DNA of 64,000 bases, taken from assembly GCF_017348835.2 (NCBI RefSeq), contig NZ_CP071375.1; one strand, written 5' to 3'. Positions 12,201 through 15,200 of the stretch are shown here, one piece after another (the stretch's first letter is position 1; the number at the start of each line of letters is the position of its first letter). The position numbers were made by a program. The stretch comes from Escherichia coli (GTDB taxonomy: Bacteria > Pseudomonadota > Gammaproteobacteria > Enterobacterales > Enterobacteriaceae).

Positions 12201-15200
12201 GTGGTTAGCTAATACCAGTACAGATGGTAATCATAGCCACTCACTGTCCGGCACAGCAGCATCTGCAGGTGCACACGCGCATACTGTCGGTATTGGTGCT
12301 CATACGCACTCCGTTGCGATTGGTTCACATGGACACACCATCACCGTTAACGCTGCTGGTAACGCGGAAAACACCGTCAAAAACATCGCATTTAACTATA
12401 TTGTGAGGCTTGCATAATGGCATTCAGAATGAGTGAACAACCACGGACCATAAAAATTTATAATCTGCTGGCCGGAACTAATGAATTTATTGGTGAAGGT
12501 GACGCATATATTCCGCCTCATACAGGTCTGCCAGCAAACAGTACCGATATTGCACCGCCAGATATTCCGGCTGGCTTTGTGGCTGTTTTCAACAGTGATG
12601 AGGCATCGTGGCATCTCGTTGAAGATCATCGGGGAAAAACCGTCTATGACGTGGCTTCCGGCGACGCGTTATTTATTTCTGAACTTGGCTCGTTACCGGA
12701 AAATGTCACCTGGTTATCGCCGGAAGGGGAATATCAGAAGTGGAACGGCACAGCCTGGGTGAAGGATACGGAAGCAGAAAAACTGTTCCGGATCCGGGAG
12801 GCGGAAGAAACAAAAAACAACCTGATGCAGGTAGCCAGTGAGCATATTGCGCCACTTCAGGATGCTGCAGATCTGGAAATCGCAACGGAGGAAGAAAACT
12901 CGTTGCTGGAAGCCTGGAAAAAGTATCGGGTGTTGCTGAACCGTGTTAATACAACAACTGCACCTGATATTGAGTGGCCTACGAACCCTGTCAGGGAGTA
13001 ATCATTGGGATTATGCCGCAGAAACGTTGTATGCAATAACGTTTTGCGGTTGGCTGGTGAACTTCCGATAGTGCGGGTGTTGAATGATTTCCAGCTGCTA
13101 CCGATTTTACATATTTTTGCCTGAGAGGATTTGAACCGCCTCCACAGACTCTACATCACAGATAACCACTGTCACGAGGACTGTTAGTGCTGTGAGTTCA
13201 ACGGGGCGATGTACGCTACCTTTAATCAAGAGGGAGAGGTACGTTGCTAAGATGAGTTTATATTCATCAACTAAGTGCAGATCAGCGAATAACTAAAACT
13301 TGGCTGTCTGAACCGCCCCGGAAATCCTGGAGACTAAACTCCCTGAGAAAGAGGTAAACAGGATGACTAAAAATACTCGTTTTTCCCCCGAAGTCCGTCA
13401 GCGGGCGATTCGTATGGTTCTGGAAAGTCAGGATGAATATGACTCACAGTGGGCGGCAATTTGTTCCATTGCCCCAAAGATTGGCTGTACGCCGGAGACT
13501 CTGCGTGTCTGGGTTCGCCAGCATGAGCGGGATACCGGGAGTGGTGATGGTGGACTCACCACCGCTGAACGTCAGCGTCTGAAAGAGCTGGAACGTGAAA
13601 ATCGTGAACTGCGCCGCAGTAACGATATCCTTCGCCAGGCTTCCGCTTATTTTGCGAAGGCGGAGTTCGACCGCCTCTGGAAAAAATAATGCCACTGCTG
13701 GATAAGCTGCGTGAGCAGTACGGGGTCGGACCGGTATGCAGCGAACTGCATATTGCCCCGTCAACGTATTACCATTGTCAGCAACAGCGACATCATCCGG
13801 ATAAACGCAGTGCCCGTGCGCAGCACGATGACTGGCTGAAGAAAGAGATACAGCGCGTATACGATGAAAATCACCAGGTATACGGTGTGCGTAAAGTCTG
13901 GCGTCAGTTGTTACGGGAAGGTATCAGAGTGGCCAGATGCACTGTGGCACGTCTCATGGCAGTTATGGGACTTGCCGGTGTTCTCCGGGGTAAAAAGGTC
14001 CGCACTACCGTCAGCCGGAAAGCCGTTGCCGCATGCGACCGCGTAAACCGTCAGTTCGTGGCAGAACGTCCAGACCAGTTGTGGGTGGCTGATTTTACCT
14101 GGGTAAGCACATGGCAGGGCTTCGTTTATGTGGCGTTCATCATTGATGTGTTCGCCGGATACATCGTGGGATGGCAGGTCTCATCATCCATGGAAACAAC
14201 ATTCGTGCTGGATGCACTGGAGCAGGCGTTGTGGGCCCGTCGGCCGTCCGGCACAATCCATCACAGTGATAAAGGTTCTCAGTATGTATCGCTGGCCTAC
14301 ACGCAGCGGCTTAAGGAAGCCGGATTACTGGCATCAACAGGGAGTACTGGCGACTCGTATGACAACGCGATGGCGGAGAGCATCAATGGTCTTTACAAAG
14401 CGGAGGTAATACACCGTAAGAGCTGGAAAAACCGGACAGAAGTGGAACTGGCCACACTAACGTGGGTGGACTGGTATAACAATCGACGATTGCTGGAAAG
14501 GCTGGGCCATATTCCTCCGGCAGAAGCAGAAAAAGCTTATTATGCTTCCATCGGAAATAATGATCTGGCAGCCTGAGTTCACAGATAAAACACTCTCCAG
14601 GAAACCCGGGGCGGTTCATCTCCCGTCGCGCTATGCACGCCGACCTCCACAAAATGCCCGGCAAAGGTCGACTGCTGGTACTCCTTGCTCAGTGTTCCGA
14701 ATTCAATGCTCTCTTCCGCTGTCAGTCTGCCGCCTGCGGTGGCCTCATGTAGCGTGGCGCTTCGGGTACCGTTGGTAATCTTGCCGTCGGCAAACTGCGA
14801 CTGCTCAGGATCAAACCCGACTGCCGAGGCAATCATTTCGCGAAGCTTCACACAGGCGGCGTAAACGCCGGAGGTGGAGGTATTCGCGCCCCATTGTCCA
14901 CCAGAACCCGCAGAAACCGGGAAACTGGAATCGCCGAGGTGAACCGCAACCTGCTCCAGCGGTACGCCAAGCATTTCCGCTGCCGTCTGGGCCAGAATGG
15001 TGTAGCTGCCGGTGCCAATGTCGGTCATGTCCGTTTCCACGGTAACGGTGCCGTTTGGTTCGAGGTGAACCCGAGCCCCCGATTTTTCCAGCAGATTATT
15101 GCGAAAGCCCGCCGCGACGCCGTGGCCGACTAGCCACTCTCCGTCGCGTACCTGTCCAGGTGTGGCGTTGCGCTGCTTCCAGCCAAATTTATCCGCTCCG

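What the first reader, a model, noticed from the sequence alone, without database searches (positions are those of the whole stretch)
13017..13111. A ~95-bp non-coding sequence is shared by the prophage remnant and the ykgJ/ecpE intergenic region
13017..13111 (just after tfa) and 19700..19794 (between ykgJ and the 3' end of ecpE) align at about 87-90% identity over ~95 bp, then diverge completely on both sides. Neither copy lies in an ORF. Possibilities are a phage-derived scar marking an older prophage end at the second locus, a short mobile or recombination-site element, or a shared small RNA or regulatory motif.
Basis: seen in the sequence. Interest (0 to 1): 0.45.

Follow-up and report, generated by a model that had tools for sequence, protein, structure and literature searches.

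The report
Lambdoid phage junction element, fossil copy
The shared ~95-bp sequence is a conserved non-coding hairpin module found at the end of the tail-fibre genes of phage lambda and its E. coli relatives, and the second copy shows that ykgJ lies inside a fossil of an old prophage end, which is useful for annotation but not surprising.

Summary
The repeat is real. Window 13024-13110 matches 19707-19793 at 85% over 87 nt without gaps (E=2e-23), and there are only two copies in the window.

It is a discrete ~95-110-nt non-coding module. It has a GC-rich hairpin whose sequence varies while its pairing is kept (8 of 10 pairs show compensatory changes). A ~60-nt conserved body follows, ending at CCGATTTTAC.

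The module occurs in phage lambda itself (24161-24290, with a hairpin-only copy right after tfa). It also occurs in 205 phage records, in more than 120 viral contigs, and in nearly every E. coli genome. It always sits at the far end of the side-tail-fibre module. It usually lies 7 nt after the stop codon of a LexA-controlled dinI-like gene on the opposite strand.

Locus B is a fossil of such a phage end, about 860 bp long: tfa fragment (Rfam IS009 = EcsR2), ykgJ, the element, then a dinI-like pseudogene. It is 90% identical over 508 nt to contigs that carry intact tfa-ykgJ-element-dinI-int.

The most likely function is a 3'UTR and terminator module for leftward accessory genes, which also acts as a homology patch where phage modules are swapped. 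The working strand and any RNA product remain unproven. Novelty is modest.

The parts
12417..13001 (+). tfa (tail fibre assembly gene, 194 aa) of the thrW prophage remnant; copy A starts 15 nt after its stop codon
   Evidence: ORF list; RefSeq annotation of an identical locus; Rfam IS009 hit 12760-12958 inside it
13016..13049 (.). Copy A hairpin (CCGCAGAAACGTT / loop / AACGTTTTGCGG). It is almost identical to the hairpin that follows tfa in lambda. No U-tract follows it on either strand.
13050..13110 (.). Copy A body (TTGGCTGGTGAACTTCCGATAGTGCGGGTGTTGAATGATTTCCAGCTGCTACCGATTTTAC), containing a second, imperfect stem-loop GGCTGG...CCAGC
   Evidence: 90% identical to lambda 24161-24290
13111..13308 (.). 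Lambda-type b-region flank, homologous to the lambda sequence between the element and ea31. It is cut off by IS3.
13309..14566 (+). IS3 copy that joins the prophage remnant to a truncated paoC. The end coordinate is approximate.
   Evidence: IS3 left end read; ALIL pseudoknot 13644-13760; IS3 transposase annotation; truncated 613-aa ORF 14579..16420 against paoC of 2199 nt in K-12
19096..19293 (+). Fossil tfa 3' fragment = Rfam IS009 = EcsR2 sRNA locus (yagU-ykgJ intergenic region)
19336..19665 (-). ykgJ (109 aa), here read as retained prophage cargo. ykgJ-like genes sit in the same slot in about 25 viral contigs.
19686..19699 (-). A-rich tract (AATCGTAAAGAGAA) left of hairpin B. On the minus strand it is the U-rich tail UUCUCUUUACGAUU after the hairpin.
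   Evidence: the motif CGTAAAG recurs in several left-flank classes and in the Rfam CssrB consensus
19700..19732 (.). Copy B hairpin (CTGCGGTACGTC / loop / GACGTATCGCGG)
19733..19793 (.). Copy B body (TTGGCTGGTGTACTTTCGATAGTGTGAGTATTGAATGATTTCCAGCCGTTACCGATTTTAC)
19797..19958 (-). dinI-like pseudogene fragment covering the 3' ~160 nt of the gene. The last 18 codons read VQETRKGTRRPANEWFLH* against VQETLKDTWESADEWFVH*. The 5' part and the LexA promoter are missing.

Best explanation
The 95-bp repeat is a copy of a discrete non-coding module of E. coli lambdoid phages. The module marks the junction between the side-tail-fibre genes (rightward late operon) and the leftward accessory 'b-region' genes.

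Read on the minus strand, its parts are:
- a ~60-nt conserved segment, starting 7 nt after the stop codon of an SOS-regulated (LexA-box) dinI-like gene in most phages;
- a GC-rich hairpin;
- in about half of the variants, a U-rich tail.

This is the layout of a 3'UTR plus intrinsic terminator closing a self-contained accessory gene unit (a 'moron'). It would keep leftward transcription from running antisense into the tail-fibre genes. Because the segment is conserved between otherwise unrelated flanks, it also serves as a homology patch where phage modules are exchanged.

Copy A is the module in place behind tfa of the thrW prophage remnant. Its upstream gene is lost and IS3 sits 198 nt away. 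Copy B is the same module inside an ~860-bp fossil of an older prophage end (tfa' - ykgJ - element - dinI'). This fossil is present in nearly all E. coli, and there the hairpin with its U-rich tail lies between ecpE and ykgJ.

Shown: homology, anatomy, genomic context, hairpin covariation, and the fossil. Inferred: the terminator/3'UTR role, the working strand, and any present-day function of the two window copies.
For: Real repeat: E=2e-23.

Same element elsewhere:
- Lambda 24161-24290 at 90%, plus 205 phage records.
- 5393 of 5426 complete E. coli genomes, median 3 places per genome.

Sharp edges: column identity drops at the hairpin base and after CCGATTTTAC.

Context:
- Where the left flank was identified it holds Stf/Tfa, with or without Pin, with or without YkgJ(-).
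- The right side is DinI-like(-) in about 90 of 122 loci.
- 18 loci had no recognised gene on either side.

DinI-like unit in L090, in order on the minus strand: int; TTGACA-18-AAAAAT promoter with two CTGT-N8-ACAG boxes; dinI-like gene (82 aa); 7 nt; body; hairpin; UUUUCUUUAUGAUUU; ykgJ. LexA-box-like inverted repeats are also seen in L003.

Hairpin:
- 8 of 10 pairs have changes on both sides and 92.9% of cells are paired.
- Covariation score 0.239 against 0.141 in shuffles (0 of 500 reached it); slid controls were 0.079 or lower.
- 23 of 40 independent left-flank classes have at least 4 U in the 8 nt after the stem on the minus strand. The plus-strand tail is always YUGGCUGG.

Mosaic joint: hairpin variants are tied to the left flank and combine with several right flanks, and chimeric hairpins exist. 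Lambda has the hairpin twice, flanking ea47.

Fossil: window 19352-19858 is 90% identical over 508 nt to L090/L094. The dinI' and tfa' fragments are confirmed at protein level. EcsR2 is published as a degraded tail fibre gene.
Against: - The commonest hairpin class (25 loci) and copy A have no U-tract on either strand, so the hairpin cannot be a canonical intrinsic terminator everywhere.
- The simple terminator scan found nothing at either window copy or in L090. The 9-nt loop is outside that scan's 3-8 nt range.
- The body's stem-loop folds better on the plus strand (mean -17.7 against -12.1 kcal/mol), because of a fixed G-U pair that would be an A-C mismatch on the minus strand.
- Rfam CssrB, a Northern-detected Shigella RNA, ends at this hairpin on the plus strand.
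- The body is not more conserved than the neighbouring dinI-like coding sequence (about 93% against 96%; third codon positions 91%). Its near-invariance may therefore reflect recent shared ancestry and recombination rather than selection.
- At locus B the hairpin is the fastest-changing segment between the window strain and K-12 (86%) and is partly eroded in K-12.
- No transcript data were available.
Confidence: 0.55

Rival explanations
1. The minus-strand transcript of the element is a regulatory small RNA. It would be released from the 3'UTR of the SOS-induced dinI-like mRNA, or read through from upstream, and would act in trans, possibly on the host dinI mRNA.
For: - The architecture is sRNA-like: a conserved ~60-nt body, then a covarying hairpin and a U-tail in many variants.
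- It sits directly after a LexA-controlled gene.
- The commonest variant holds an exact 17-mer (CTGGCTGGCGAACTTTC) that also occurs in the chromosomal dinI coding sequence. The minus-strand RNA is therefore perfectly complementary to dinI mRNA over 17 nt. Duplex energy is -42 kcal/mol, z=-4, with 0 of 300 shuffles as good.
Against: - No promoter lies within or consistently upstream of the element; the right flanks differ.
- The centre of the 17-mer is the most variable spot of the body, and both window copies have 3 mismatches to it.
- EPEC Hfq RIL-seq tables hold no entry for the ykgJ/ecpE intergenic region.
- The body is no more conserved than the adjacent coding sequence.
Confidence: 0.15
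2. The functional strand is the plus strand. On this view the two stem-loops form the 3' end of the tail-fibre (late operon or pin) transcripts, or of a CssrB-like RNA. They would act as a 3' stabiliser or processing site rather than as a terminator for leftward genes.
For: - Plus-strand folds are more stable. The mean for the full element is -33.6 against -28.8 kcal/mol. Copy B scores z=-4.0 on plus against -3.1 on minus.
- The fixed G-U pair in the body stem and a G-U in the phi458 variant are tolerated only on the plus strand.
- Rfam CssrB ends with this hairpin on the plus strand and was seen on a strand-specific Northern blot in Shigella flexneri.
- The element follows directly after the plus-strand genes tfa or pin.
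Against: - No U-tract follows either stem on the plus strand.
- The CssrB 3' end was only predicted, not mapped, and the match is 27 bits against a gathering score of 76.
- The A-rich tract before the hairpin recurs in several flank classes and makes sense only as a minus-strand U-tail.
Confidence: 0.15
3. The element acts at the DNA level, either as a site where cassettes are inserted (hairpin-directed or site-specific recombination) or as a small mobile element or protein-binding palindrome.
For: - It has sharp boundaries with many different flanks on both sides.
- Lambda ea47 is bracketed by two hairpin copies, and copy A looks like lambda with that cassette removed.
- Chimeric hairpins have their crossover in the conserved loop.
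- The body is an imperfect palindrome, 74% complementary over 19-nt arms.
- A symmetric double change keeps the outer dyad in phi458 (GGCTGG/CCAGCC becomes GGATGG/CCATCT).
- In copy B the ends CGTAAA and TTTACG can pair.
Against: - Every occurrence is in the same genomic slot, unlike a mobile element.
- No dedicated recombinase is consistently adjacent. Pin is present only in a minority, and the element lies downstream of pin, outside the invertible segment.
- Ordinary homologous recombination in a conserved patch explains the joints and the chimeras.
- The exact core is confined to E. coli in a scan of one genome per species.
Confidence: 0.1
4. Copy A encodes the 39-aa protein that RefSeq annotates as 'capsid protein'.
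For: RefSeq and NCBI records annotate this ORF on 278 or more contigs.
Against: - No hit in NCBIfam, PHROGs or Pfam.
- The ORF is open with a start codon in only 37 of 69 variants.
- Variable sites are spread 9/9/8 over the three codon positions.
- There is an in-frame stop in copy B (read from the sequence).
- The upstream part of the ORF is the hypervariable hairpin, which carries indels.
Confidence: 0.02

Closest known systems
Moron units of lambdoid phages: an accessory gene with its own promoter and factor-independent terminator, inserted between conserved modules (concept of Juhala, Hendrix and colleagues; cited from memory)
   Same: The dinI-like gene has its own sigma-70 promoter with LexA boxes. 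It is followed by the element's hairpin, with a U-tail in many variants. The whole unit sits at the end of the tail-fibre operon.
   Different: The 60-nt segment between the stop codon and the hairpin is kept even when the upstream gene is replaced (ea31 in lambda, attP/sib, others). About half of the hairpin classes lack a U-tract. Termination has not been measured.
Rfam RF02799 CssrB (chromosome-encoded Shigella sRNA B, Shigella flexneri 301, SF2021/SF2022)
   Same: The last ~45 nt of the CssrB consensus (AAAUCGUAAAGGAAACCGCAGCACGUCUUAAGCAAGAACGUGCUGCG) are the A-tract and hairpin of this element.
   Different: Only the hairpin matches (27.3 bits against a gathering score of 76). 127 model positions are absent. 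The conserved 60-nt body lies outside CssrB. CssrB is on the plus strand and its 3' end was predicted rather than mapped. No full CssrB match was found in 15 related loci.
Rfam RF02111 IS009 / EcsR2 sRNA (yagU-ykgJ intergenic region)
   Same: It belongs to the same prophage fossil. It is a tfa 3' fragment lying 414 nt left of copy B, and the intact tfa lies 66 nt left of copy A.
   Different: It is a different sequence in a different intergenic region, and it derives from coding sequence. The 95-bp element is not part of IS009.
Conserved linker or boundary sequences at mosaic joints of lambdoid phage genomes (modular evolution; cited from memory)
   Same: It is a short conserved patch between non-homologous modules. 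The recombinant combinations and chimeric hairpins seen here are what such a patch predicts.
   Different: This patch has a conserved, covarying secondary structure, so it is probably more than a passive homology patch.
3'UTR-derived Hfq-dependent sRNAs (CpxQ or SdhX type)
   Same: It occupies the position directly after a stop codon, with a conserved body and a terminal hairpin with a U-tail.
   Different: No evidence of processing, of Hfq binding or of targets was found. The ykgJ/ecpE intergenic region is absent from the EPEC RIL-seq tables.

Membership tests
Rfam IS009 (RF02111) | Match to the 199-nt covariance model at or above the gathering score of 117 bits | tested here: not met
   IS009 hits 12760-12958 and 19096-19293 only. 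These are next to the 95-bp element, not on it.
Rfam CssrB (RF02799) | Match to the 180-nt model at or above the gathering score of 76 bits | tested here: not met
   27.3 bits at 19679-19731(+). Only the 3' hairpin aligns and 127 model positions are missing. No hit at gathering level in the window or in 15 related loci.
Intrinsic (Rho-independent) terminator | GC-rich stem-loop | tested here: met
   Stems of 10-14 bp, -9 to -23 kcal/mol in nearly all variants, with covariation.
Intrinsic (Rho-independent) terminator | U-tract directly after the stem on the transcribed strand | tested here: inconclusive
   On the minus strand, 23 of 40 flank classes have at least 4 U in 8 nt (17 have at least 5). 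The class with copy B's left-flank type has 5 of 8; copy A's classes have 2 of 8. On the plus strand no class has a U-tract. The consensus scan reports no terminator, but the loop is longer than its limit.
Intrinsic (Rho-independent) terminator | Mapped RNA 3' ends, or measured termination | not testable with these tools
   No Term-seq or RACE data for these sites could be retrieved.
PasB sRNA (EPEC prophage sRNA whose flanks are enriched for IS009) | Sequence and position of PasB (NC_011601 1466261-1466343, minus strand) | tested here: not met
   PasB lies between the tail assembly gene and gpJ. It is not behind tfa, and its probe sequence is unrelated to this element.
Hfq-dependent trans-acting sRNA | Own promoter or defined processing site, Hfq association, and targets | tested here: inconclusive
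   No promoter-like site lies in the element. No ykgJ/ecpE intergenic entry appears in the EPEC RIL-seq tables. The 17-nt complementarity to dinI holds only in some variants.
Miniature mobile element (MITE-like) | Copies in many unrelated genomic contexts | tested here: not met
   In every locus where the flanks were identified, the element sits at the tail-fibre / b-region junction of lambdoid prophages or in the locus B fossil. Target-site duplications were not examined rigorously.
Hin/Gin/Pin invertase crossover site | Located at the borders of the invertible tail-fibre segment | tested here: not met
   Where pin is present, the element lies downstream of the pin stop codon, outside the invertible segment. 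Most loci have no pin.
Protein-coding gene ('capsid protein', 39 aa) | Conserved open frame with a start codon, codon-position bias, and family support | tested here: not met

The most novel reading that the evidence does not exclude
The element is the business end of a prophage-encoded, SOS-induced RNA. When LexA is cleaved, the prophage dinI-like mRNA is made. Its 3'UTR is the minus strand of the element and is perfectly complementary over 17 nt to codons ~20-25 of the host dinI mRNA in the commonest variant. It would pair with and silence host dinI, so the prophage substitutes its own DinI variant and tunes RecA activity during induction.
Probability: 0.07. Interest if true: 0.65.

Novelty: new member of a known kind. 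Interest (0 to 1): 0.33.

Why it matters
- **Annotation of a core E. coli region.** The two intergenic regions around ykgJ, and ykgJ itself, are the tail end of an ancient lambdoid prophage (tfa' - ykgJ - element - dinI'). This extends the published origin of EcsR2 and suggests that ykgJ is domesticated phage cargo.
- **An unannotated structured element in phage lambda.** It lies between ea47 and ea31, with a hairpin copy behind tfa. It is shared by hundreds of coliphages, is absent from Rfam, and is mislabelled 'capsid protein' in many RefSeq genomes.
- **A concrete mosaic joint.** The element is a place where tail-fibre modules and accessory genes (dinI-like, ykgJ-like, ea47) are swapped.

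None of this overturns current views, and the mechanism is still inferred.

Tried and rejected
- **PasB sRNA.** This was a lead from a preprint reporting IS009 next to PasB. PasB lies between gpI and gpJ and has an unrelated sequence.
- **K-12 Rac.** tfaR is not followed by the element.
- **Chromosomal dinI 3'UTR** (an Hfq-bound FnrS partner in RIL-seq). It has its own terminator and no element.
- **The body as a dinI pseudogene fragment.** Beyond the exact 17-mer the similarity is not significant (p 0.09-0.5).
- **A promoter inside the element.** None was found. The TAAAAT at the right edge has no conserved -35 in any flank class, by inspection. The GTGACA-16-TAGAGT site right of copy A is not conserved in lambda, by inspection.
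- **Small ORF.** Rejected.
- **Intramolecular pairing of the 3'UTR with the prophage dinI-like mRNA.** No better than shuffled sequence (z=+0.5).
- **Selection on the body.** It is not more conserved than the adjacent coding sequence.
- **Rfam.** No family covers the element at gathering level.
- **Full-text search for the core sequence.** It found only papers using lambda DNA.
- **Searches on lambda b-region transcripts, on DinI-like genes with sRNAs, and on chi sites.** Nothing useful.
- **First automated U-tail count.** It was flawed because the fold extended past the hairpin. It was redone.
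Full report
**Observation**

The two stretches align without gaps. BLASTN gives window 13024-13110 against 19707-19793, 74/87 identical (85%), E=2e-23, and no other copy in the 64 kb. The repeat is therefore real and far beyond chance, though slightly less similar than stated.

Rfam IS009 hits 12760-12958, inside the tfa ORF 12417..13001. It also hits 19096-19293, between yagU and ykgJ. BLASTN aligns 12822-12938 with 19160-19274 at 72%. The gap between this tfa-derived segment and the repeat is 66 nt at locus A and 414 nt at locus B, and at locus B the gap holds ykgJ (19336..19665, minus strand).

**Where the window comes from**

The locus A sequence is 100% identical to E. 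coli strains such as PE164, where it is the end of a prophage remnant at the tRNA-Thr gene next to proA. The gene order there is integrase, yfdT/R/Q/P-like genes, truncated J, lom, stf, tfa, and then IS3.

In the window, IS3 starts at 13309 and abuts a truncated paoC. paoB, paoA, yagU, ykgJ and ecpE follow, as in K-12. RefSeq places a 39-aa 'capsid protein' ORF exactly on copy A.

**The element elsewhere**

- A 159-nt query around copy A hits 205 phage records, including lambda itself at 24161-24290 (90%), with two places per lambda record.
- In lambda, a hairpin almost identical to that of copy A lies directly after tfa: GCCGCAGAAACGTTGTATGAAATAACGTTCTGCGG.
- After the ea47 gene comes a second hairpin copy followed by the rest of the element. 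Lambda therefore looks like copy A with a 1.6-kb ea47 cassette inserted between two hairpin copies.
- A 165-nt query around copy B hits 5393 of 5426 complete E. coli genomes, with a median of 3 places per genome.
- In one genome per species across bacteria, the exact core was found only in E. coli. Two tiny contigs in a Lysobacter and a Chryseobacterium assembly are 95-96% identical to E. coli locus B and are evidently contamination.

**Anatomy**

Across 69 unique contexts, conservation begins sharply at the base of a hairpin and ends sharply after CCGATTTTAC.

The hairpin has a conserved loop and inner stem (ACGTCGTATGCAAGAACGT) and a variable outer stem.
- On a 40-sequence alignment, 8 of its 10 pairs show changes on both sides and 92.9% of cells are paired.
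- The covariation score is 0.239 against 0.141 in shuffles (0 of 500 reached it), and 0.079 or lower when the partner is slid.

The ~60-nt body is nearly invariant in this set, though part of it was forced by the search pattern. It forms a second, imperfect stem-loop (GGCUGG...CCAGCC). One compensatory change in this stem is seen in phage phi458.

Both window copies fold better than shuffled sequence: z=-2.1 (plus) and -1.3 (minus) for A, and -4.0 and -3.1 for B.

**Context**

Results come from tblastn with reference proteins on ±3 kb around each element.
- Where the left flank was identified it holds Stf/Tfa, sometimes followed by a Pin-type invertase or by a ykgJ-like gene on the minus strand (about 25 loci).
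- The right side holds a DinI-like gene on the minus strand in about 90 of 122 loci.
- Eighteen loci had no recognised gene on either side.
- Other right flanks are the lambda ea31 side, a sequence I recognise from memory as lambda sib/tI plus attP, and further unidentified ones.

In L090 the minus strand reads as follows:
1. integrase;
2. a TTGACA-18-AAAAAT promoter with two CTGT-N8-ACAG (LexA-type) boxes;
3. the dinI-like gene (82 aa);
4. 7 nt;
5. the body;
6. the hairpin;
7. UUUUCUUUAUGAUUU;
8. 35 nt;
9. the ykgJ start codon.

The same 7-nt spacer after the stop codon occurs in all 34 unique dinI-linked loci.

**Locus B is a fossil**

Window 19352-19858, which covers ykgJ, the element and the start of the right flank, is 90% identical over 508 contiguous nt to L090/L094. 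Those contigs carry intact tfa, ykgJ, dinI-like and integrase genes.
- The right flank 19797-19958 is a dinI-like pseudogene fragment. Its last 18 codons are 61% identical at protein level, and the upstream part is 69-74% identical at DNA level.
- The left fragment translates to a degraded Tfa C-terminus.

The whole interval 19096-19958 is thus the distal end of an old lambdoid prophage, and ykgJ sits in the cargo slot that ea47 occupies in lambda. K-12 has nothing annotated in the ykgJ-ecpE intergenic region.

**Function: what can and cannot be said**

For a minus-strand 3'UTR/terminator module:
- The element sits directly after the stop codon of a self-contained SOS-regulated gene.
- It has a stable covarying hairpin.
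- 23 of 40 independent left-flank classes have a U-rich tail (at least 4 U in 8 nt) on the minus strand, whereas the plus-strand tail is always YUGGCUGG.
- An A-rich motif (CGTAAAG...) recurs before the hairpin in several flank classes and in the CssrB consensus.

Against, or complicating:
- The most frequent hairpin class and copy A lack a U-tract.
- The simple terminator scan is silent, though the 9-nt loop is outside its range.
- The body stem-loop is more stable on the plus strand because of a fixed G-U pair.
- Rfam CssrB, a Northern-detected ~180-nt Shigella RNA, ends at this hairpin on the plus strand. However, its 3' end was only predicted, and the match is far below the gathering score.

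Among loci that share the dinI flank, the body is about 93% identical. That is no more conserved than the dinI-like coding sequence (96%; third codon positions 91%). The hairpin, at 57%, is hypervariable. Between the window strain and K-12 at locus B the identities are as follows:

| Segment | Identity |
|---|---|
| Hairpin | 86% |
| Body | 97% |
| dinI' fragment | 91% |
| tfa' fragment | 94.5% |
| ykgJ | 98.8% |

The evidence for selection therefore rests on the maintained hairpin structure, not on the sequence of the body.

**Recombination**

Each hairpin variant occurs with essentially one left flank but with several right flanks and body variants. Some hairpins are chimeras whose two arms come from different variants, with the switch in the conserved loop. 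The element is therefore a frequent mosaic joint. Ordinary homologous recombination in the conserved patch is sufficient to explain this. Nothing points to a dedicated recombinase or to transposition, because every occurrence is in the same genomic slot.

**Rejected or unsupported ideas**

- The 39-aa ORF is not a gene.
- PasB is a different locus.
- K-12 Rac and the chromosomal dinI do not carry the element.
- No promoter lies in the element.
- The EPEC Hfq RIL-seq tables have no ykgJ/ecpE intergenic entry.

**Side observation**

The commonest variant of the body begins with CTGGCTGGCGAACTTTC. This is an exact 17-mer of the chromosomal dinI coding sequence (codons for LAGELS), so a minus-strand transcript would be perfectly antisense to host dinI mRNA over 17 nt. 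The duplex energy gives z=-4.

Similarity does not extend beyond the 17-mer. The middle of the 17-mer is the most variable spot of the body, and both window copies have three mismatches to it. I treat this as an unexplained coincidence or a lead, not as part of the main explanation.

**Verdict**

- the element is a conserved, structured, unannotated junction module of E. coli lambdoid phages, lambda included;
- the second copy belongs to an ~860-bp prophage fossil that includes ykgJ.

The most likely role is a 3'UTR/terminator for leftward accessory genes that doubles as a recombination patch (confidence about 0.55). An sRNA, a plus-strand RNA element and a DNA-level site remain possible. This is a new member of known kinds (moron terminator, mosaic linker, prophage relic), of moderate to low interest.

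Noticed in passing
window 12760-12958 and 19096-19293: Rfam IS009 (RF02111) scores 226 bits inside the intact tfa gene and 169 bits in the yagU-ykgJ intergenic region. The family is in effect a tfa 3' coding fragment, and the second hit is the published EcsR2 sRNA locus.
   Followed up: yes
window 13005-13124 (+): RefSeq and NCBI annotate a 39-aa 'capsid protein' (WP_106121378.1; found on 278 or more contigs) exactly on the non-coding element. It has no family support, no conserved frame and no codon periodicity, so it looks like a propagated mis-annotation.
   Followed up: yes
L127 (K-12 dinI, NC_000913.3 1121242-1121487) against the element body; consensus variant in L015 and others: An exact 17-mer CTGGCTGGCGAACTTTC is shared by the chromosomal dinI coding sequence and the commonest variant of the element body. 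A minus-strand transcript of the element would be antisense to dinI mRNA (duplex z=-4). There is no significant similarity beyond the 17-mer. The window copies have 3 mismatches each.
   Followed up: partly
window 13053-13060, 19736-19743; lambda (L002 ~4703-4710): The body contains GCTGGTGA in copy A and lambda, and GCTGGTGT in copy B. These match 7 of 8 bases of the Chi octamer GCTGGTGG, on the plus strand. From memory, wild-type lambda lacks Chi and one chi+ mutation site (chiB) maps in the b region. Whether it is this site could not be checked.
   Followed up: no
L002 3073-3107 and 4664-4698 (lambda ~22572-22606 and ~24163-24197): Lambda ea47 is bracketed by two copies of the hairpin as direct repeats (about 28 of 35 nt identical). 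Copy A of the window looks like lambda with the ea47 cassette missing.
   Followed up: partly
window 13309-~14566 and ~50623-50739: There are two IS3 copies, shown by ALIL pseudoknot hits at 13644-13760(+) and 50623-50739(-). The first joins the prophage remnant directly to a truncated paoC (613-aa ORF 14579..16420), so the region between tfa and paoC present in K-12 (CP4-6, yagP, paoD) is missing.
   Followed up: partly
L090 8600-8660; L003 4391-4440: The prophage dinI-like genes have a near-consensus promoter (TTGACA-18-AAAAAT) overlapped by two CTGT-N8-ACAG LexA-type boxes. They lie between the integrase or prophage end and the gene.
   Followed up: partly
L129 (Lysobacter sp. A03, 401-nt contig) and L130 (Chryseobacterium mucoviscidosis, 262-nt contig): Both contigs are 95-96% identical over their whole length to E. 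coli locus B (window 19579-19976). They are almost certainly E. coli contamination in those assemblies.
   Followed up: yes
L111 (IMG/VR contig): This 'viral' contig is 96.8% identical to window 18400-20800 (yagU-ykgJ-ecpE), so it is E. coli chromosome around the fossil rather than a phage.
   Followed up: partly
window 19666-19700 (ykgJ leader): ykgJ is listed as a validated RyhB target in a ribosome-profiling study (PMC4666370). Its start codon lies only ~35 nt downstream, on the minus strand, of the element's hairpin. No promoter-like site was found between the hairpin and the start codon, so ykgJ may be transcribed by read-through from the ecp operon.
   Followed up: no
window 19294-19335: The hairpin GCCCCGCTATTATCGCTGGCGGGGC lies between the tfa fragment and the 3' end of ykgJ. 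On the minus strand it is followed by TTCGTTTTC and looks like the ykgJ terminator. The published EcsR2 3' end falls at about this position.
   Followed up: no
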